IMG/VR virus record: IMGVR_UViG_3300045988_020044
Coordinates: 1-45,657 of that record
Length of the DNA stretch: 45,657 nucleotides
Reading direction: 5' to 3' (one strand)
Source of the DNA: a virus
The notes beneath the pieces are model-generated. The model saw only the letters and a program-made list of their open reading frames with translations, searched no databases and had not been told where the DNA came from. The translations under genes were made by a program, and so were the position numbers. Shown here in pieces: positions 16,980 to 26,099 of this stretch (its first letter is position 1; each line of letters begins with the position of its first letter).

Positions 16980-17756
16980 ATGCTTAGTCCAGAGTACTTG
17001 CGCAGAATCACAGAAGGCAGTGAACAGATTGCTGAGGAGTTACACCAGTATATTATATCTGAGATTGTATCTCGAATGATGGCAAGAATCGGAAGAGGTG
17101 AGGATTATATTCTGACCAATGCCGATGCGTGGAGAATCAGAACACTACAGGAATCTGGTGAACTGTTAGAAGACATTCTGGCAGAGCTGTCTAAATATAC
17201 CAAGCGGCAGCAGGAAGAACTAAAAGAGGCGTTTGAAGATGCCGGAATCACTGCCCTCGATTATGATGATAAGATATACAAGGCGGCAGGATTAAGCCCT
17301 GTACCGCTCGAACAGTCGCCAGCTATGATAAGACTCATGGAGCGAAATATGCTTGCAACCATGGGCGAGTGGAAGAACTTCACGAGAACAACTGCAAGTG
17401 CTGCTCAGGCGTTGTATATCAACCAGTGTGACCTTGCATACAATCATGTGATGACTGGGGCAGTTGGATATACGCAAGCGATTAGAGAAGCAGTTAACAA
17501 TGTTGTAAGCAATGGCGTTACGGTAACATATCCATCCGGCAGAAAAGATACAATTGAAACAGCGGTTGCACGCTCTGTCAGAACTGGCGTGGCACAGGCG
17601 TGCGCTGATATTCAGTTGGCAAGAATGAAAGAAATGGGATATGGCTTAGTGCTGACATCGGCGCATATAGGAAGCCGCCCAAGCCATGAAGTGTGGCAAG
17701 GGCAGGTATTCTCTATAGACTGGGAAAAATTAAAAGAAATCAAGCCTTATCTTTAA
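16980..17756 (+). CDS. head morphogenesis/minor capsid protein (SPP1 gp7 / Mu F-like), N-terminal fragment
   Basis: Ends ...SAHIGSRPSHEVWQGQVFS plus a 13-aa tail. The conserved continuation YPDF...CGVNCRHHF is found at 18719..19192. Confidence 0.75.
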   Translation: MLSPEYLRRITEGSEQIAEELHQYIISEIVSRMMARIGRGEDYILTNADAWRIRTLQESGELLEDILAELSKYTKRQQEELKEAFEDAGITALDYDDKIYKAAGLSPVPLEQSPAMIRLMERNMLATMGEWKNFTRTTASAAQALYINQCDLAYNHVMTGAVGYTQAIREAVNNVVSNGVTVTYPSGRKDTIETAVARSVRTGVAQACADIQLARMKEMGYGLVLTSAHIGSRPSHEVWQGQVFSIDWEKLKEIKPYL

Positions 17757-17907
17757 CAGAATCGAGATACAATGAAATTGCTTTATCGAGTATTTTGCTG
17801 ATAGGTATTCCAGTATCATCAGAATACGATTTTAATTTTTCATAAATTTCACGATCAATAGCATTTGATATTGCTACACGGTTTTTTAAACCTCTGTTAT
17901 TTGACAT
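17740..17907 (-). CDS. ribbon-helix-helix (CopG/Arc-like) DNA-binding protein (55 aa)
   Basis: GAAAGGAG SD. MSNNRGLKNRVAISNAIDREIYEKLKSYSDDTGIPISKILDKAISLYLDSVKDKA shows the strand-helix-helix pattern. Not in the ORF track (<60 aa). Confidence 0.65.
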   Translation of the reverse strand: MSNNRGLKNRVAISNAIDREIYEKLKSYSDDTGIPISKILDKAISLYLDSVKDKA

Positions 17908-17931
17908 TTTATTCAACTCCTTTCATACTAA

Positions 17932-18009
17932 AGTTTATCATAACTTTCAACTACTTGCAATTAAAATAAAATAATGATATAATTGAATGTAGATAAATGC
18001 AGTTGAAAG
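17932..18009. promoter_or_regulatory. back-to-back promoters sharing a palindromic TTGCAA -35, flanked by inverted repeat CTTTCAACT/AGTTGAAAG
   Basis: Plus strand: TTGCAA (17955-60), 17 nt, TGATATAAT (17975-83). Minus strand: TTGCAA, 17 nt, TAAACT (rc of 17932-37). Inverted repeat at 17944-52 and 18001-09. Confidence 0.6.
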
Positions 18010-18020
18010 GAGAAAGCACA

Positions 18021-18701
18021 ATGACTTTTGAAGAATTTTGTATTAAAAATGGTAAAAAAGAAAAACCACTTTCAGGGAAATCCTACAGATATTCTCACGG
18101 AATGGCAGAAACTCGATTATACAAAATATGGGCAGGCATGAAAATAAGAACATCTGAAAAGGCACAGCCTCATAACAAAGTGGCGTATTTTGATAGAGGA
18201 ATAACAGTATGTGATGAATGGAAAGAATTCAAACCTTTTTTATTATGGGCTTACACAAGCGGGTACGAAAAAGAACTTACAATAGACAGGATAGATGTTA
18301 ATAAAGGGTATTCTCCTGATAATTGTCGGTGGGTGCCATTAGAATGGCAAAACAACAACAAACAAAGCAGTTGGAAAATTAAATACCAAGGAGATACAAA
18401 AACCGTAGGTGAATGGGAACATTTCTTTGGCGTTCATCGTGAATATATAAGAAAAAGGCTTAATCATGGATGGACTTTTGACGAAATTGTAGAAAACATA
18501 AAAAATCCCACAACATTAAACAAGAACAATAAAAGTGGTATAAAGGGAGTTTTATTTGACAATAATCATTCAAAATGGAGAGCTTATATTTCTGTAGGCG
18601 GAAAACGCGTAGAAGATCGAGTTTTTAAAACCAAAGAAGAAGCAGTGATGGCAAGGAAACAAATGGAATTAAAATATTGGGGATATACAAATATTGAGTA
18701 A
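18021..18701 (+). CDS. HNH homing endonuclease with AP2 DNA-binding domain
   Basis: LTIDRIDVNKGYSPDNCRWV (HNH_3-like). GIKGVLFDNNHSKWRAYISVGGKRV...FKTKEEAVMARKQMELKYWG (AP2-like). Confidence 0.8.
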   Translation: MTFEEFCIKNGKKEKPLSGKSYRYSHGMAETRLYKIWAGMKIRTSEKAQPHNKVAYFDRGITVCDEWKEFKPFLLWAYTSGYEKELTIDRIDVNKGYSPDNCRWVPLEWQNNNKQSSWKIKYQGDTKTVGEWEHFFGVHREYIRKRLNHGWTFDEIVENIKNPTTLNKNNKSGIKGVLFDNNHSKWRAYISVGGKRVEDRVFKTKEEAVMARKQMELKYWGYTNIE

Positions 18702-18718
18702 TTATGGGGTGGCTATTT

Positions 18719-19192
18719 ATGAATAAAAAACATACTTATCCTGATTTTATTGAAAATTGTCATTATGGCGAAGCCGATGGAATATGTGGAGTAAATTGCA
18801 GGCATCATTTTTCGGTTTGGGTGGAAGGAATGCCGAATCCCTATGCGGAATTATCAGCGCAGGACAAAGCCGACAAAGGTAAACAGTACGAAAAAGAACA
18901 GCGGCAACGTACTTATGAACGGAGAATCCGCAAAACGAAGAGAGAAGTTCTCGGAATGCAAGCGGCGGTTAATAACTGCAAGGACGAACAGGCAAGATTT
19001 GCACTCCAACAAGACCTTGACCGGAAGTCTTATCTCTTACAGAAACAAAATGCTGCATACAAAGATTACTGCAAACAGAATGGCCTGAGGGAACTGCAAG
19101 ACCGCCTTATGATTGCGAAGTGGAACCGTCAGAACGCCGCAAAAGCCAGAGGAGCGGCAAAGAGATATAAAACAGCAAAGGGGATTGACTGA
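18719..19192 (+). CDS. head morphogenesis/minor capsid protein, C-terminal fragment
   Basis: MNKKHTYPDFIENCHYGEADGICGVNCRHHF. GGGGTGG SD lies 6 nt before ATG 18719 (an alternative ATG is at 18704). Confidence 0.7.
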   Translation: MNKKHTYPDFIENCHYGEADGICGVNCRHHFSVWVEGMPNPYAELSAQDKADKGKQYEKEQRQRTYERRIRKTKREVLGMQAAVNNCKDEQARFALQQDLDRKSYLLQKQNAAYKDYCKQNGLRELQDRLMIAKWNRQNAAKARGAAKRYKTAKGID

Positions 19193-22997: not shown

Positions 22998-23552
22998 ATG
23001 AGAGACATTAAAGATTTATGCGCAAGAATTGAAGACGAACTGTCCAAAATCGCTGATAGTGGGCTGACCACTGGAAATCTGGAAATGACATACAAACTGA
23101 TTGATATGTACAAAGATATCAAGAACACGCAGTACTGGGATAAGAAAGCGGAGTATTACAACGCTGTCCTTGATGAAATGCGTAGCGGATACAATGACGA
23201 TTACAGCGAGCGCGGAAGAAAACGTGACAGCATAGGGAGATACAGCGCAAATGATGGCAGAATGATGCCGGATTACGACAGGGGCAATTCTTATGCCAGA
23301 CGGGGCGAACATTACGTCAGAGGGCATTACAGCCGTTCTGATGGACGAGACGCTTACGATGACTACATGACGCAGAAGCAAAGCTATCGTTCCGGCAAAT
23401 CTGAAGACTGTAAGAGAAAGATGCTTGCCGCTCTGGAAGAACATCTGGACGAACTTACAACAGAAATGAGCGATATGTCCAAGGATGCAGAGTGCCGGGA
23501 GGAACGCGATCTTGTCAAGAGATACGTAGAAAAACTCCGGGATATGCTCTAA
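22998..23552 (+). CDS. hypothetical protein with an R/D/Y/G-rich central region between helical ends (184 aa)
   Basis: GGAGGTG SD. The equally long antisense ORF 23016..23558 has no SD. Confidence 0.6.
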   Translation: MRDIKDLCARIEDELSKIADSGLTTGNLEMTYKLIDMYKDIKNTQYWDKKAEYYNAVLDEMRSGYNDDYSERGRKRDSIGRYSANDGRMMPDYDRGNSYARRGEHYVRGHYSRSDGRDAYDDYMTQKQSYRSGKSEDCKRKMLAALEEHLDELTTEMSDMSKDAECREERDLVKRYVEKLRDML

Positions 23553-23558
23553 AAACAC

Positions 23559-23598
23559 AAAAGTGGTAGAGAGGTAGTTAAAATAAATCTGTTATAAT
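23559..23598 (+). promoter_or_regulatory. putative late promoter, second copy of AAAAGTGGTAGAGAG plus extended -10 TGTTATAAT
   Basis: 15-mer at 23559-73; TATAAT at 23593-98. Confidence 0.55.
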
Positions 23599-23682
23599 GT
23601 AATTGTGCAGCAGGAAGCACAAGTAAAACGGTTGTTTTGACATTTTCGTTTTAATCCTCCTTTCTTTAATTTAGTAGCTGGT

Positions 23683-23731
23683 GCGCACGCTTTAATGGAA
23701 AGTTAAACAGGTTCGATTCCTGCCGTGCGTA
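23683..23731 (+). tRNA. truncated tRNA-like element lacking a D-arm (anticodon-like loop UGGAAAG)
   Basis: Acceptor GCGCACG/CGTGCGT, T-arm CAGG-TTCGATT-CCTG, and a single intervening hairpin TTTAA-TGGAAAG-TTAAA. Only about 49 nt. Confidence 0.3.
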
Positions 23732-23881
23732 TTTGCCGTCTGGCACGCAAGATGGCACACCTCCTTGATTAAGGTTTTTGTTATTCATACTTTTCTTTTA
23801 AAAAAAGTAATAAATATCCGAAACAACTCGTGGTAGGCATAACACGTTAAATACCTTGCTAACCCGGGAATCCGGGTTATG

Positions 23882-23950
23882 TGGAATGTACGTTAATGGT
23901 AGACTGACAGGGTCGCGCCCTGGGTTCCGGTTCGATTCCGGGCGTTCCGC
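23882..23950 (+). tRNA. aberrant tRNA-like element (anticodon position CGC, 2-nt variable region)
   Basis: Acceptor TGGAATG/CGTTCCG (two G-U pairs), T-arm TCCGG-TTCGATT-CCGGG, 3-bp D-stem, anticodon hairpin CAGG-GTCGCGC-CCTG. Confidence 0.35.
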
Positions 23951-24066
23951 TTATTTGCTCAGAATTATGCTGTCTGTTTGTAGGCGGTCTATGGTTCGGG
24001 TAAATTATCCCATGGGTAAAGGTTAACGCTTATCCTGTTAACTGCTGGACAGTTCGAAAAGTGCAG

Positions 24067-24139
24067 TGAAATATAGCGCAGTTGGTAGAGCAACATCCGC
24101 ATAGGGTGCGTGTCGGCGGTTCGATTCCGCCTATTTCAT
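24067..24139 (+). tRNA. tRNA with CAU anticodon (Met/Ile2-type) but G at position 33
   Basis: Acceptor TGAAATA/TATTTCA, D-arm GCGC-AGTTGGTA-GAGC, anticodon loop CGCATAG, T-arm GGCGG-TTCGATT-CCGCC. No encoded CCA. Confidence 0.65.
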
Positions 24140-24217
24140 TACCTTGCCAGTGGTCTAACTGGCTTAATCCATTTTACCTGCGGCGGCAGGTCAATAAACA
24201 CGACCAGGAGGATGTAT

Positions 24218-24850
24218 ATGCAGAAACTTATTGACACATTAAAATCATTTGGAATTGAAATCCCTGAGGATAAGCAGGCAGATATTAAGAAAGCACTTTC
24301 TGAGAATTACAAGAATGCAAAAGAAGTAGCGAAAACCCTGACAAAAGTCGAGGGTGAACGTGACGACTGGAAAGAACGCGCTGAAACAGCAGAAGAAACT
24401 TTAAAAGGATTTGACGGTATCGACCCGGCAAATGTCAAAAGCGAGTTAGAGACTTGGAAACAGAAAGCGGCAGATGCAGAGAAAGAATTCAATGCAAAAA
24501 TCTATGACCGTGATTTCTCAGACGCACTCAAGGCGGCACTCGATGATGTTAAGTTTTCCAGTGAAGCGGCTAAGAAGTCTGTTATGGCAGACATTAAAGA
24601 AGCGGGTCTCAAACTGAAAGACGGTAAAATCCTTGGACTGAACGACCTGATCGAACAGATGAAACAGTCTGACGCATCCGCTTTTGTGGATGAATCTCAG
24701 CAGCAGGCTCAGCAGAATCAGGCAAGATTTACCACTCGCGTTGGACAGCAGCAGACACCGGGAAGTATGACTAAGAAAGATATCGAAGCAATCAAAGACC
24801 CGTCTGAAAGACAGGCTGCAATTGCTCAGAATATCCAGTTATTCCAGTGA
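24218..24850 (+). CDS. scaffolding protein (GP20-like)
   Basis: Charged coiled-coil protein directly upstream of the capsid gene; GGAGGA SD. Confidence 0.75.
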   Translation: MQKLIDTLKSFGIEIPEDKQADIKKALSENYKNAKEVAKTLTKVEGERDDWKERAETAEETLKGFDGIDPANVKSELETWKQKAADAEKEFNAKIYDRDFSDALKAALDDVKFSSEAAKKSVMADIKEAGLKLKDGKILGLNDLIEQMKQSDASAFVDESQQQAQQNQARFTTRVGQQQTPGSMTKKDIEAIKDPSERQAAIAQNIQLFQ

Positions 24851-24929
24851 TTTTTTTACACCGACTATACGTCAGAGTATAGCCGCTAACCCAATACCTT
24901 AATAATTATGGGTAGAAAGGATTTTTTAT

Positions 24930-26099
24930 ATGGCAGCAAAAGCTAAGCTTATTATGAGTAATGATATTCAGGTCACAGCGCGTGAGATTGACTTTGTAAC
25001 CAGATTCGAAAGAAACTGGCAGCACTTACGTGATATTCTGGGCATCATGAGACCTATCAAAAAACAGCCGGGTGCTGTACTCAAGTCCAAATACGCAGAG
25101 GGTACTTTGCAGAGCGGAAATGTTGGTGAGGGTGAGGAAATCCCTTACAGCAAGTTTACTGTAAAAGAAAAGACCTATGCGGAAATGACTATTGAAAAGT
25201 ACGCAAAGGCTGTATCTATCGAAGCAATCAAGGATCACGGTTATGAGAACGCTGTTCAGATGACTGATGATGAATTCCTTTTCCAGCTTCAGACTGACGT
25301 TACCGGCAGATTCTATGATTATCTGAAAACCGGTACGCTTACTTCCACAGAAACAACATTCCAGATGGCTCTGGCAATGGCTAAAGGCCGTGTAGAAAAC
25401 AAATTCAAACAGATGCACAGAAATGTGACTGGCGTTGTTGGATTTGTGAACATTCTGGACGTATATGAATATCTTGGAGCGGCTGAGATCACTATTCAGA
25501 ACCAGTTCGGCTTCCAGTACATGAAAGATTTCATGGGATTCAATACTATCTTCCTGTTATCCGACAGCGAAATCCCGAGAGGACAGGTTATTGCTACCCC
25601 TGTCGAGAACATCGTACTTTACTATGTTGACCCGAACGAATCTGACTTTGCAAGAGCAGGTCTGGTGTATACCGTATCTGGCGAGACAAACCTGATCGGA
25701 TTCCACACTCAGGGCAACTATCACACAGCAGTGTCCGAAGCGTTCGCAGTTATGGGACTTACTCTTTTTGCGGAGTACATTGACGCAATCGCAGTAATCA
25801 CCATTGATGAGACACCAACACTTGGTACTCTGACAGTAACATCTGCGGCAGGAACAGTAACTGGTGATACAAAAATCACTGTAAATCCGGCTAAGGAAAA
25901 CTCCAACAACGTATACAAATACAAAGTTGCAACAGACGCAGTAACTGTTGGATATGGACAGAACCTCAGGAACTGGACTTCTTGGGACGGAAAAGCTGAC
26001 ATCAAGGCGGCAACCGGACAGAAGATCACAGTAGTTGAGTGCGATGGAACATACAAGGCACTGAATGCCGGAAGTGCGAGCGTAACAGCAAAATCATAA
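24930..26099 (+). CDS. major capsid protein with C-terminal Ig-like domain
   Basis: 389 aa after the scaffold gene. C-terminus TLGTLTVTSAAGTVTGDTKITV...ITVVECDG is Ig-like. Confidence 0.8.
   Translation: MAAKAKLIMSNDIQVTAREIDFVTRFERNWQHLRDILGIMRPIKKQPGAVLKSKYAEGTLQSGNVGEGEEIPYSKFTVKEKTYAEMTIEKYAKAVSIEAIKDHGYENAVQMTDDEFLFQLQTDVTGRFYDYLKTGTLTSTETTFQMALAMAKGRVENKFKQMHRNVTGVVGFVNILDVYEYLGAAEITIQNQFGFQYMKDFMGFNTIFLLSDSEIPRGQVIATPVENIVLYYVDPNESDFARAGLVYTVSGETNLIGFHTQGNYHTAVSEAFAVMGLTLFAEYIDAIAVITIDETPTLGTLTVTSAAGTVTGDTKITVNPAKENSNNVYKYKVATDAVTVGYGQNLRNWTSWDGKADIKAATGQKITVVECDGTYKALNAGSASVTAKS

What the first reader, a model, noticed from the sequence alone, without database searches (positions are those of the whole stretch)
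23683..24139. Cluster of three tRNA-like elements, all with non-canonical anticodon loops, at the head of the late structural operon
- A 660-nt non-coding stretch follows a late-promoter motif and precedes the scaffold gene. It contains three GGTTCGATTCC T-arms with matching 7-bp acceptor stems.
- Only the third element (24067-24139) is a full cloverleaf. Its anticodon is CAU, but position 33 is G instead of the near-universal U.
- The first element (23683-23731) has no D-arm at all. Its loop is UGGAAAG, again with G33.
- The second element (23882-23950) has a 3-bp D-stem and a 2-nt variable region.
- In all three, positions 32 and 38 can pair (U-G, G-C, C-G), which shrinks the loop to 5 nt. 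This is not expected for decoding tRNAs.
- None encodes CCA.
- Possible explanations:
  - Decaying tRNA genes.
  - tRNA variants that escape, or act as decoys for, host anticodon nucleases.
  - tRNA-like punctuation processed by RNase P/Z to mature the long late transcript.
- A GCTAACC motif and a perfect hairpin (23861-78) sit immediately 5' of element 2.
Basis: partly seen in the sequence, partly recalled or inferred. Interest (0 to 1): 0.65.

Follow-up and report, generated by a model that had tools for sequence, protein, structure and literature searches.

The report
Phage leader array of tRNA-like RNAs
The three "odd tRNAs" are not decaying genes: each is conserved across a large family of human-gut Lachnospiraceae phages, and together they form a swappable array of tRNA-shaped RNAs in front of the scaffold and capsid genes, so their function is worth testing.

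Summary
Three exact GGTTCGATTCC T-arms with acceptor-like stems lie at 23680-23733, 23882-23950 and 24067-24139. None encodes CCA. The third has G33.

Comparison with about 200 related phage loci changes the interpretation.
- **Element 1** is a reduced allele of the Rfam motif RAGATH-21. Of 85 complete relatives, 59 carry the element-1 form and 26 carry RAGATH-21, always in the same slot and never together.
- **Element 2** is a conserved, covarying tRNA-like RNA. Its loop (G)UCGCN(C) is fixed, and it lacks the G3:U70 pair needed for alanine charging.
- **Element 3** is one allele of a hypervariable tRNA cargo slot with at least 12 anticodons. It belongs to a covarying class whose loop is always C32-purine33-YAU-A37-G38.

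All modules keep the tRNA "top half": acceptor stem, T-arm and the elbow GG. The anticodon half is free to vary or disappear. Each module is followed by a U-rich, CCA-less trailer.

Best explanation (inferred, not shown): host RNase P and RNase Z cut the array into small RNAs and a trimmed scaffold/capsid mRNA. Decay is rejected. A role in escaping or decoying anticodon nucleases stays open for element 3.

In relatives the same slot also holds ROOL RNA and skipping-rope RNA.

The parts
23590..23598 (+). Candidate extended -10 promoter element (TGTTATAAT)
   Evidence: Read from the sequence. Conserved in the loci that carry the element-1 form. There is no full sigma-70 consensus on the + strand, so the promoter is inferred only.
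23653..23664 (+). Anti-Shine-Dalgarno-like AAUCCUCCUUUC just upstream of element 1
   Evidence: CCTCCTTTC is conserved in all relatives, whichever module follows. It is complementary to the scaffold ribosome-binding site AGGAGGAU at 24206-24213. Its function is not tested.
23680..23733 (+). Element 1: a closing stem (7 strong pairs, 10 with G-U pairs), a GG-containing junction or hairpin CUUUAAUGGAAAG, and a canonical T-arm. It is a reduced allele of RAGATH-21.
   Evidence: 59 of 85 complete loci carry this form and 26 carry Rfam RAGATH-21 in the same slot; the two never co-occur. Covariation supports the closing stem and the T-stem (G-C to A-U, A-U to G-C), with 97.7% of cells paired. The Rfam RAGATH-21 model does not hit the window, even at E up to 10.
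23735..23767 (+). Hairpin GCCGUCU/AGAUGGC followed by CACCUCCUUG, which resembles the 3' end of 16S rRNA
   Evidence: Conserved after both element 1 and RAGATH-21. The hairpin loop is inverted in L049 and L061.
23818..23879 (+). Conserved pre-tRNA motif. It has a small hairpin CGUG/CACG with loop GUAGGCAUAA, an A-rich linker, UUGCUAAC, and a perfect hairpin at 23860-79. A pseudoknot RGCA x UGCU is a candidate.
   Evidence: Present in 83 of 86 loci, always 0-3 nt upstream of a tRNA or tRNA-like 5' end. Divergent lineages L091 and L123 keep GCAUA, UUGCUAAC and GUUA while the hairpin sequence changes. No Rfam family matches it. SAM_alpha at 14.6 bits is spurious, and pistol gives no hit.
23882..23950 (+). 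Element 2: a conserved non-decoding tRNA-like RNA. It has an acceptor stem, a degenerate D-arm with an invariant UGG, a 5-bp stem with loop UCGCG, and a T-arm.
   Evidence: Found in 49 of 86 loci as 16-17 variants. 95% of cells are paired, 5 pairs show double changes, and the anticodon-like helix is 100% paired with 3 covarying pairs. A covariance model of element 2 finds homologues in the divergent loci L115, L149 and L159 with the same loop GUCGCGC but different stems. Pair 3:70 is G-C, not G:U.
23951..24066 (+). Structured spacer between element 2 and the cargo tRNA. It includes the recurring module AAGGUUA..CUUAUCCUGU-hairpin-CGAAAAG just 5' of the tRNA.
   Evidence: Homologous spacers precede cargo tRNAs in many loci, and the hairpin sequence differs between them (AACUG/CAGUU, GACUGG/CCAGUC, GACUAA/UUAGUC). 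Single-sequence fold. Not analysed further.
24067..24139 (+). Element 3: cargo tRNA with anticodon CAU (24100-24102) and loop C32-G33-CAU-A37-G38. It has a full cloverleaf, discriminator U, and no CCA.
   Evidence: ARAGORN and Rfam tRNA, 40.7 bits. Eleven class members on at least 4 different anticodon-stem sequences keep C32-G38 (10 of 11), a purine at 33, Y34 and AUAG. Ten pairs show compensatory changes.
24140..24217 (+). Conserved trailer, which is also the scaffold mRNA leader. It has hairpin GCCAGU/ACUGGC (24146-63), AAUCCA, hairpin ACCUGC/GCAGGU (24176-91), and the ribosome-binding site AGGAGG (24206-11).
   Evidence: Nearly invariant in close relatives. Both hairpins keep pairing with different sequences in divergent lineages (GCCGG/CCGGC, GCCGA/UCGGC, GACAG/CUGUC, GCCCG/CGGGC). 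A T-loop sits at the tRNA-correct distance from the trailer start in at least 183 of 216 instances.

Best explanation
The 660-nt stretch is the leader of the scaffold/major-capsid transcript of a temperate Lachnospiraceae siphovirus. It is built as a modular array of tRNA-shaped RNAs.

**Order of parts in the window**
1. An anti-SD-like box.
2. Slot A, filled here by element 1, a reduced allele of RAGATH-21.
3. A hairpin followed by CACCUCCUU.
4. A conserved pre-tRNA motif ending in a perfect hairpin.
5. Element 2, a conserved non-decoding tRNA-like RNA.
6. A structured spacer.
7. A cargo tRNA, element 3.
8. A conserved two-hairpin mRNA leader and the ribosome-binding site.

**Shown**
- Every module keeps the tRNA 'top half': an acceptor-type stem stacked on a T-arm, plus the elbow GG.
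- The anticodon half is absent (element 1), shrunken (element 2), or unusual but conserved (element 3).
- All modules lack CCA and are followed by a U-rich trailer.
- The modules are swapped freely between phages that are otherwise nearly identical.

**Inferred**
- Host RNase P cuts at each 5' end, and RNase Z cuts after each discriminator base.
- This releases stable small RNAs: the RAGATH-21/element-1 unit ending in the protective hairpin, element 2, and the cargo tRNA.
- It also leaves a scaffold/capsid mRNA that begins with a stabilising hairpin.
- Elements 1 and 2 are not decoders.
- Element 3 is a cargo tRNA of a purine-33, YAU-anticodon class. It would read AUG or AUA codons and is either functional but altered, or a mimic.
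For: **The cargo slot varies while the flanks are fixed.** The scaffold protein is 96-99% identical in 80 relatives, yet the intergenic region ranges from 457 to 1145 nt with more than 30 architectures.

**Slot A holds one of two alleles.** There are 59 element-1 loci and 26 RAGATH-21 loci, never both. Both forms share:
- a 10-bp closing stem;
- the junction C(C/U)UUAAU(A/G)GAAA;
- a hairpin with a 7-nt T-loop-type loop joined directly to the 3' strand of the closing stem.

**All three elements covary.** Element 1, element 2, the element-3 class.

**The elbow nucleotides are fixed.** The GG of element 1 and the UGG of element 2 never change, although their D-stems are degenerate.

**The position after the pre-tRNA motif accepts anything tRNA-shaped:**
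- element 2 in 49 loci;
- a genuine tRNA;
- tRNA-likes with truncated anticodon arms (L002, L094, L148);
- a bare acceptor/T-arm minihelix (L091).

**Decoding tRNAs are dispensable.**
- L085 has only element 2.
- L096 has RAGATH-21 joined directly to the same AUUACC trailer that follows tRNAs.
- A T-loop lies at the tRNA-correct distance from the trailer in at least 183 of 216 instances.

**No intrinsic terminator** is predicted between the array and the scaffold gene. The only + strand 'terminator' is the T-arm of element 3.

**Established knowledge (my own, not checked here).**
- RNase P needs only the acceptor/T-stem stack and the elbow.
- In Firmicutes, tRNA precursors without an encoded CCA are cut by RNase Z after the discriminator base.
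Against: - There are no expression, end-mapping or cleavage data. The promoter is only an extended -10.
- Pure punctuation does not explain two conserved loops: (G)UCGCN(C) of element 2, kept across divergent lineages, and C-R-YAU-A-G of the element-3 class. Both point to a loop-specific function as well.
- The closing stem of element 1 and RAGATH-21 can be 10 bp rather than 7. Stacked on the T-stem this gives 13-15 bp, against 12 bp in tRNA.
- A stable hairpin only 0-3 nt upstream of the cleavage site is unusual for RNase P substrates.
- Single-sequence folding z-scores are modest, -1.35 to -1.75.
Confidence: 0.55

Rival explanations
1. Counter-defence cargo. The T-arm RNAs are phage tRNAs or tRNA decoys selected to resist or soak up host tRNA-targeting immune nucleases. 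The altered anticodon loops (purine-33 with a C32-G38 clamp, or 5-nt loops) are the escape mutations. The rapid turnover of the slot reflects an arms race.
For: - The slot is hypervariable in near-identical phages: Tyr GUA, Met/Ile CAU, Ile UAU, Thr UGU, Gln UUG/CUG, Asn GUU, Val UAC, Cys GCA, Ser GCU, Phe AAA and Lys UUU.
- Some alleles on one tRNA body differ by a single anticodon base: L009 UAC against L010 UAU, and L011 GUA against L018 GCA.
- The non-canonical loop of the element-3 class is itself conserved while its stems covary.
- Published work proposes that phage tRNAs evade anticodon nucleases through loop mutations (PMC10264068). Other papers report phage tRNAs neutralising retron or PARIS defences (PMC11555353 and PMC11464382, titles and abstracts).
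Against: - No defence nuclease of these hosts is known to target these loops.
- Element 1 has no anticodon arm, so loop escape cannot apply to it.
- Some phages carry no decoding tRNA at all (L085, L096).
- This rival can coexist with the processing model for the cargo tRNA.
Confidence: 0.22
2. Cis-regulatory leader. The structured RNAs, the three anti-SD-like boxes and the candidate pseudoknot motif control translation or stability of the scaffold/capsid mRNA without being excised. One possibility is masking of the ribosome-binding site until late in infection or until a ligand or protein binds.
For: - AAUCCUCCUUUC (23653-64), CACCUCCUUG (23758-67) and AAUCCA (24165-70) are conserved and complementary to the ribosome-binding site AGGAGGAU.
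- The pre-tRNA motif resembles an H-type pseudoknot with an A-rich linker.
Against: - The anti-SD boxes lie 450-550 nt from the ribosome-binding site.
- Modules between them are swapped, deleted or expanded, even by a 560-nt ROOL RNA, while the flanks stay unchanged. That fits cargo better than a fixed regulatory fold.
- No Rfam riboswitch matches.
Confidence: 0.1
3. Decaying tRNA pseudogenes left over from an ancestral tRNA cluster.
For: Elements 1 and 2 are missed by ARAGORN and fall below the Rfam tRNA threshold. Their D-arms or anticodon arms are degenerate.
Against: - Each element is a conserved family with compensatory substitutions and invariant loop and elbow residues across dozens of phages.
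- An element-2 homologue persists in divergent lineages with an identical loop.
Confidence: 0.03
4. The conserved motif at 23818-23879 is a self-cleaving ribozyme, a pistol relative, that creates the 5' end of the tRNA or tRNA-like element without RNase P.
For: - It shares CACGUUAAAUA and UUGCU.AA with the env25 pistol ribozyme. That sequence is taken from PMC6101554.
- It shares pistol's order of a small hairpin, an A-rich linker and a later hairpin.
- It always abuts a tRNA 5' end.
- RAGATH motifs were named for their association with ribozyme-linked genes (my own knowledge).
Against: - The Rfam pistol model gives no hit, even at E up to 10 on 89 nt.
- There is no P2 3' strand.
- There is no complement to the hairpin loop at the pistol position.
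- The junction to the tRNA varies in length and sequence (A, AU, AC, U, UGU, UAU). In pistol the junction length is conserved (PMC6154101).
Confidence: 0.05

Closest known systems
RAGATH-21 RNA (Rfam RF03097; candidate structured RNA of unknown function from gut metagenomes)
   Same: Element 1 occupies exactly the slot that RAGATH-21 occupies in 26 of 85 relatives, between the same flanks. Both have a 10-bp closing stem, the 5' junction C(C/U)UUAAU(A/G)GAAA, and a hairpin with a 7-nt T-loop-type loop (UUCGAAU against UGCAAUU) joined to the 3' strand of the closing stem.
   Different: Element 1 lacks the P2 and P3 hairpins. Its T-arm is a canonical 5-bp tRNA T-arm. The Rfam model does not detect it. 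L008 carries an intermediate form with an inserted hairpin.
tRNA-like processing signals: mascRNA at the MALAT1 3' end, and the mitochondrial tRNA punctuation model (my own knowledge)
   Same: A tRNA-shaped element with a degenerate anticodon region is embedded in a longer transcript. It sits directly downstream of a stable structure that would protect the upstream RNA after RNase P cleavage. The tRNA top half is conserved.
   Different: This is a bacterial phage. Several different modules lie in tandem, they are exchangeable between genomes, and they sit in an mRNA leader. No cleavage has been shown.
Phage tRNAs with anticodon-loop changes proposed to evade host anticodon nucleases (van den Berg et al. 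2023, PMC10264068)
   Same: Element 3 is a phage-encoded tRNA with a conserved, non-host-like anticodon loop, in a rapidly changing tRNA locus.
   Different: Here the change removes the near-universal U33 and adds a Watson-Crick 32-38 pair. That would shrink the loop to 5 nt, which is far more drastic than the published point changes. No target nuclease is known.
Canonical bacterial tRNA (Rfam RF00005)
   Same: Element 3 has a full cloverleaf, GG in the D-loop and a T-loop, and scores 40.7 bits. Other alleles of the slot score 55-74 bits.
   Different: Element 3 has G33 and C32-G38. Element 2 falls below threshold. Element 1 has no anticodon arm.
ROOL / GOLLD large RNAs, known to lie near tRNAs in prophages (PMC5737381)
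   Same: In L019 (and, by sequence identity, L077 and L083) a ROOL RNA of 383.7 bits sits in this very slot between two tRNAs. So this array is one of the tRNA-linked phage ncRNA contexts described for ROOL.
   Different: The window itself carries no ROOL RNA.
Pistol self-cleaving ribozyme (Rfam RF02679)
   Same: The motif shares 11 + 5 identical nucleotides with env25 (CACGUUAAAUA, UUGCU) and occurs in a Firmicute phage context.
   Different: It has no P2, no pistol-type pseudoknot partner, no conserved G-U site and no covariance-model hit.
Theta (minimal HDV-like) ribozymes 3' of gut-phage tRNAs (PMC10879173)
   Same: A conserved structured element lies immediately 3' of CCA-less tRNAs in a gut phage.
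   Different: The trailer has no complement for a P1 helix starting at the cleavage site, and no HDV-family Rfam hit. It looks like two plain hairpins.

Membership tests
tRNA (decoding), element 3 | Cloverleaf with acceptor, D, anticodon and T arms, detected by standard predictors | tested here: met
   ARAGORN calls tRNA-Met(cat) at 24066-24140. Rfam RF00005 scores 40.7 bits against a gathering score of 29.
tRNA (decoding), element 3 | 7-nt anticodon loop with U33 and a 32-38 pair that is not Watson-Crick | tested here: not met
   The loop is C32 G33 C A U A37 G38. Position 33 is G or A, and 32-38 is C-G in 10 of 11 class members.
tRNA (decoding), element 3 | Aminoacylation and ribosomal decoding | not testable with these tools
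   Needs charging and ribosome-binding assays.
tRNA (decoding), element 2 | Detected by tRNA predictors at threshold | tested here: not met
   ARAGORN gives no call. No RF00005 match is reported. The tRNA-Sec hit scores 21.8 bits against a gathering score of 47. The divergent homologue in L115 is called tRNA-Ala(cgc) by ARAGORN.
tRNA-Ala identity, element 2 (anticodon-like CGC) | G3:U70 wobble pair in the acceptor stem (the AlaRS determinant; my own knowledge) | tested here: not met
   Pair 3:70 is G23884-C23947. In alignment A2 this is columns 5 and 71, G-C in 17 of 17 variants.
RAGATH-21 (RF03097), element 1 | Match to the Rfam covariance model at the gathering score of 70.3 bits | tested here: not met
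   No hit at E up to 10 over 23500-24260. Relatives score 75-91 bits in the same slot.
RAGATH-21 (RF03097), element 1 | 10-bp closing stem, 5' junction CCUUAAuAGAAA, and a 3'-terminal hairpin with a 7-nt T-loop-type loop | tested here: met
   Closing stem 23680-89 with 23724-33, junction CUUUAAUGGAAAG, hairpin ACAGG-UUCGAUU-CCUGC. Covariation; comparison with the Rfam consensus.
RAGATH-21 (RF03097), element 1 | Internal hairpins P2 and P3 (GuUGAAAAgC) | tested here: not met
   They are replaced by the 5-nt linker UUAAA.
RAGATH-21 (RF03097), element 1 | Same genomic position and flanks | tested here: met
   59 element-1 loci and 26 RAGATH-21 loci, never both, between CCTCCTTTC and a hairpin followed by CACCTCCTTG.
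tRNA-like RNase P/Z processing element (mascRNA type, punctuation) | Conserved acceptor/T-arm stack and elbow, with a dispensable anticodon half | tested here: met
   The GG and the T-loop are invariant. The anticodon arm is absent, truncated or variable.
tRNA-like RNase P/Z processing element (mascRNA type, punctuation) | Actual cleavage at the 5' end and after the discriminator base | not testable with these tools
   Needs end mapping or in-vitro RNase P/Z assays.
Pistol ribozyme, motif 23818-23879 | P1, P2 and P3, a 6-bp pseudoknot between the P1 loop and the P2-P3 junction, and a G-U cleavage site in a junction of fixed length | tested here: not met
   No Rfam pistol hit. No P2 3' strand and no complement at the pistol pseudoknot position. 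The junction to the tRNA varies. Family definition taken from PMC6154101.
HDV-like / theta ribozyme, trailer 24140-24217 | Nested double pseudoknot with P1 starting at the cleavage site | tested here: not met
   No Rfam HDV-family hit. By inspection, UUACCUU has no downstream complement.

The most novel reading that the evidence does not exclude
RAGATH-21, its reduced allele (element 1) and element 2 may be a new class of phage-encoded tRNA 'top-half' mimics without a working anticodon. In this reading they are excised by RNase P/Z, possibly given a CCA tail, and then act in trans. They might serve as sponges or decoys for host enzymes that recognise the tRNA elbow, acceptor stem or 3' tail, such as tRNA-directed immune nucleases or toxins. 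They might instead modulate tRNA processing. The purine-33 YAU tRNAs would then be nuclease-proof AUA/AUG decoders. This reading would give RAGATH-21, and by context ROOL, a first functional handle.
Probability: 0.15. Interest if true: 0.85.

Novelty: new variant of a known kind. Interest (0 to 1): 0.62.

Why it matters
- **RAGATH-21.** This orphan motif has had no functional lead. Here a natural allele replaces its T-loop hairpin with a textbook tRNA T-arm, and in one relative RAGATH-21 sits exactly where a tRNA would sit relative to the trailer. That makes 'RAGATH-21 is a tRNA-related, RNase P/Z-processed RNA' directly testable.
- **A natural hotspot for phage ncRNAs.** One locus in abundant human-gut phages collects tRNAs, tRNA-likes, RAGATH-21, ROOL and skipping-rope RNAs in front of the most highly expressed late genes. 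It could be used to study what these RNAs do.
- **Unusual tRNAs under selection.** A class of tRNAs without U33 and with a clamped 5-nt loop challenges the assumption that such genes are pseudogenes. It bears on the current debate over why phages carry tRNAs.

Tried and rejected
- **Pistol ribozyme for the motif 5' of element 2.** The local similarity to env25 is striking. However, there is no covariance-model hit, no P2, no pistol pseudoknot and a variable junction.
- **SAM-II riboswitch (SAM_alpha).** It scores 14.6 bits against a gathering score of 36, so I treat it as spurious.
- **Theta/HDV-like ribozyme for the trailer.** No P1 complement and no Rfam hit.
- **Hammerhead in the spacer before element 3.** The core reads CUGUNRA...RAAAAG and lacks the essential A of CUGANGA. 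No Rfam hit.
- **A 5-bp pseudoknot GCAGG x CUUGC in the pre-tRNA motif.** It fails in lineage L091. The shorter RGCA x UGCU pairing survives but shows only one-sided changes.
- **The G/A to C/U co-variation between CAU(G/A)A and AAA(C/U)ACC.** It cannot be told apart from haplotype linkage.
- **Literature on RAGATH-21.** No paper in the library mentions it. The supplements of the discovery paper are not held.
- **Literature on purine-33 phage tRNAs.** Nothing found.
- **Single-sequence thermodynamics.** Uninformative, with z-scores from -1.35 to -1.75.
- **Codon usage.** ATA is 13.4 per 1000 codons overall but 0 of 38 Ile codons in scaffold plus capsid. This fits an AUA-decoder cargo but is not decisive without host codon data.
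Full report
**1. Observation**

The region 23553-24217 is intergenic. It lies between an ORF of unknown function (phrog_28802, ending at 23552) and the head scaffolding gene (ATG 24218, phrog_194). The major head protein gene follows.

GGTTCGATTCC occurs exactly three times within 420 nt. With up to 1 mismatch the window has 5 matches, against 0.52 expected.

- **Standard predictors.** ARAGORN and Rfam call only the third element as a tRNA: tRNA-Met(cat), 40.7 bits.
- **Relaxed Rfam scan.** It gives element 2 only a 21.8-bit tRNA-Sec match and gives element 1 nothing.
G33 and C32-G38 in element 3, the weak D-stem and tight loop in element 2, the missing CCA, and the hairpin at 23861-78 are all correct.

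Two corrections apply. Second, the region is internal to the morphogenesis block, because terminase, portal and minor head genes lie upstream.

**2. Relatives**

The window is a temperate siphovirus. It carries an integrase, a prim-pol/VapE protein, terminase, portal, scaffold and major capsid genes.

- Five GenBank contigs from human faeces share the locus.
- The nearest genome hits are Lachnospiraceae, at 71% amino-acid identity or less.

Although the flanking genes are nearly identical, the intergenic region ranges from 457 to 1145 nt and shows more than 30 architectures.

**3. Element 1 is an allele of RAGATH-21**

In all five GenBank relatives, the position of element 1 is occupied by Rfam RAGATH-21 (RF03097, 77-91 bits). 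Across 85 complete loci, 59 carry the element-1 form and 26 carry RAGATH-21. No locus has both or neither.

The flanks are the same in both cases: CCTCCTTTC upstream, and a hairpin followed by CACCTCCTTG downstream.

The two forms share:
- a 10-bp closing stem;
- the junction C(C/U)UUAAU(A/G)GAAA;
- a hairpin with a 7-nt loop joined directly to the 3' strand of the closing stem. The loop is UGCAAUU in RAGATH-21 and UUCGAAU or UUCGAUU in element 1. Both fit the T-loop pattern U-N-N-R-A.

Element 1 lacks the P2 and P3 hairpins, and the Rfam model does not detect it.

Twenty-three sequence variants support the closing stem and the T-stem through compensatory changes (8-79 G-C to A-U; 58-74 A-U to G-C). 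Overall 97.7% of cells are paired.

The central CUUUAAUGGAAAG(UUAAA) can fold in two ways. One is UUAA/UUAA with loop UGGAAAG. The other is CUUU/AAAG with loop AAUGG. The data do not decide between them. The GG is invariant.

**4. The motif 5' of element 2**

The stretch 23818-23879 is present in 83 of 86 loci. It always ends 0-3 nt before the 5' end of a tRNA or tRNA-like element.

Its parts are CCGAAAC, a CGUG/CACG hairpin with loop (N)RGCAUA(R), an A-rich linker, UUGCUAAC, and a perfect hairpin.

Two divergent lineages, L091 and L123, keep GCAUA, UUGCUAAC and GUUA while the hairpin sequence changes.

The motif shares CACGUUAAAUA and UUGCU.AA with the env25 pistol ribozyme. That sequence comes from PMC6101554. 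It is nevertheless not a pistol ribozyme:
- there is no covariance-model hit, even on 89 nt at E up to 10;
- there is no P2 3' strand;
- there is no pistol-type pseudoknot partner;
- the junction to the tRNA varies in length, whereas pistol keeps it fixed (PMC6154101).

A short pseudoknot, RGCA x UGCU, is possible but shows only one-sided changes.

**5. Element 2 is a conserved tRNA-like RNA**

It occurs in 49 of 86 loci. In an alignment of 17 variants, 95% of cells are paired and 5 pairs show double changes. The anticodon-like helix is 100% paired, and 3 of its 5 pairs covary.

The loop is UCGCN, or GUCGCNC if the G32-C38 pair is opened. The UGG of the D-loop and the T-loop never change, whereas the D-stem is mostly unpaired.

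A covariance model built from the element-2 alignment finds homologues in GC-richer lineages (L115, L149, L159; 54-56 bits). There ARAGORN calls the element tRNA-Ala(cgc). The loop GUCGCGC is identical, but the stems differ (GGAGG/CCUCU, with a 4-bp D-stem).

Pair 3:70 is G-C in every variant. The G3:U70 determinant for AlaRS is therefore absent. AlaRS does not read the anticodon, and no other synthetase is known to accept a CGC anticodon (my own knowledge). Element 2 is therefore very unlikely to be a decoder.

**6. Element 3 is one allele of a hypervariable cargo slot**

The last module before the trailer can be Tyr GUA, Met/Ile CAU, Ile UAU, Thr UGU, Gln UUG or CUG, Asn GUU, Val UAC, Cys GCA, Ser GCU, Phe AAA, or Lys UUU in a distant prophage.

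Several alleles share one tRNA body and differ by a single anticodon base. L009 has UAC and L010 has UAU. L011 has GUA and L018 has GCA.

Element 3 belongs to a class with loop C32-R33-Y34-A-U-A37-G38. Eleven members were aligned, on at least four unrelated anticodon-stem sequences (ACAUC/GGUGC, GAGAG/CUCUU, GAGGA/UCCUU, AUAUC/GAUAU). The results are:
- 95% of cells paired;
- 10 pairs with compensatory changes;
- C32-G38 in 10 of 11 members;
- a purine at position 33 in all members;
- an invariant AUAG.

The odd loop is therefore selected, not a sign of decay. CAU and UAU alternate on the same body (L014 and L021), which suggests a link to AUG or AUA codons. ATA is 13.4 per 1000 codons in the phage, but it accounts for 0 of 38 Ile codons in scaffold plus capsid. 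That is only weak support for a codon-supply role.

**7. What is constant**

Every module keeps an acceptor-type stem stacked on a T-arm, plus the elbow GG. Every module lacks CCA and is followed by a trailer starting with U, such as AUUACC, AUUUGCC or CUUAUUU.

The position after the pre-tRNA motif can be filled by any of the following:
- element 2;
- a true tRNA;
- a tRNA-like with a truncated anticodon arm (L002, L094, L148; also L152 with a 3-bp stem and loop UACAUAU);
- a bare acceptor/T-arm minihelix with a 13-nt linker (L091).

Decoding tRNAs are dispensable. L085 has only element 2. In L096 the closing stem of RAGATH-21 abuts the same AUUACC trailer that follows tRNAs.

A T-loop lies at the tRNA-correct distance from the conserved trailer in at least 183 of 216 instances.

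The trailer is itself the scaffold mRNA leader. It has two hairpins that keep pairing with different sequences in divergent lineages, followed by the ribosome-binding site.

**8. Mechanism**

The retained features are the ones that RNase P, RNase Z and the CCA-adding enzyme recognise. The dispensable features are the ones needed for decoding. This statement rests on established knowledge of those enzymes, not on a test here.

The best-supported model is a punctuated leader:
- RNase P cuts at each module's 5' end.
- RNase Z cuts after each discriminator base.
- This releases an upstream RNA that ends in the perfect hairpin (the RAGATH-21/element-1 unit), element 2, and the cargo tRNA.
- It leaves a scaffold/capsid mRNA that begins with a hairpin.

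The modular anatomy, the conservation and the covariation are shown. Transcription from the extended -10 at 23590-98, all cleavages and the stability of the products are inferred.

The model does not explain why the loops of element 2 and of the element-3 class are conserved. An additional function in trans is therefore likely, such as decoy, nuclease-resistant decoder or protein ligand. The published nuclease-evasion hypothesis for phage tRNAs (PMC10264068) is the main rival, or a complement, for the cargo tRNA.

**9. Comparison and novelty**

The closest known entities are:
- RAGATH-21, for element 1. It shares the architecture and the slot but fails the Rfam model.
- tRNA-like processing signals of the mascRNA or punctuation type, for element 2. 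This is an analogy of function, untested.
- Phage tRNAs with altered anticodon loops, for element 3.

The same slot holds a ROOL RNA in L019 (383.7 bits; also L077 and L083 by sequence identity). Distant prophages L088 and L089 carry a skipping-rope RNA upstream of the scaffold gene. This matches the reported association of ROOL and GOLLD with tRNAs in prophages (PMC5737381).

I rate the finding a new variant of known kinds, for three reasons:
- a tRNA-ised RAGATH-21 allele;
- a conserved tRNA-like family that cannot decode;
- a selected tRNA class with purine at position 33.

**10. Verdict**

- The 'decay' reading is rejected.
- The 'punctuation' reading is the best supported, at about 0.55.
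- The 'escape or decoy' reading stays open.
- Interest is 0.62. The locus links several orphan phage ncRNAs to tRNA biology and gives clear experiments, but no function has been demonstrated.

Noticed in passing
L019:1784-2343 (also L077 and L083 by sequence identity): A full-length ROOL RNA (RF03087, 383.7 bits) sits in the same intergenic slot, between tRNA-Met(cat) and tRNA-Ser(gct), upstream of the scaffold gene.
   Followed up: partly
L088:1736-1832, L089:662-758: Distant Lachnospiraceae prophages carry a skipping-rope RNA (RF02924, 53.5 bits) upstream of the homologous scaffold gene. L087 has tRNA-Lys(ttt) 75 nt before the scaffold ATG.
   Followed up: no
window 16980-19192: The minor head protein gene appears split. 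The N-terminal part is at 16980-17756 (phrog_581). An HNH endonuclease ORF lies at 17997-18701. The C-terminal part is at 18704-19192 (Phage_min_cap2, profile positions 251-366). This suggests a homing-endonuclease insertion. No group I intron was detected by Rfam.
   Followed up: no
window 23742-23749; L049, L061: The loop of the hairpin after element 1 (GGCACGCA) is present as its reverse complement in two relatives, while the stem is unchanged. This looks like a loop inversion.
   Followed up: no
window 23653-23664, 23758-23767, 24165-24170: Three conserved anti-Shine-Dalgarno-like boxes are complementary to the scaffold ribosome-binding site AGGAGGAU at 24206-13. They are AAUCCUCCUUUC, CACCUCCUUG (identical to the 16S rRNA 3'-end core) and AAUCCA.
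   Followed up: partly
window 24020-24066; also L001, L021, L033, L084, L122, L152: A recurring module lies directly 5' of cargo tRNAs: AAGGUUA..CUUAUCCUGU, then a hairpin, then C(G/A)AAAAG. The hairpin keeps pairing with different sequences in different loci. It resembles a hammerhead core but lacks the essential A. No Rfam hit.
   Followed up: partly
L009 vs L010; L011 vs L018; L014 vs L021: Pairs of cargo tRNAs are identical except for one anticodon base (UAC/UAU, GUA/GCA, CAU/UAU). This indicates anticodon switching on a fixed tRNA body.
   Followed up: partly
L130, L146, L099, L131: RAGATH-21, with or without tRNAs, also lies about 100-600 nt upstream of a different scaffold-like gene (MKTEELKAQGLTEEQ...). 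Its link to head-scaffold genes therefore extends beyond this phage family.
   Followed up: no
window 24218-26099: The scaffold and major capsid genes use no ATA, CAA or TGT codons. ATA is 0 of 38 Ile codons, although it makes up 20% of Ile codons across the phage genes sampled.
   Followed up: no
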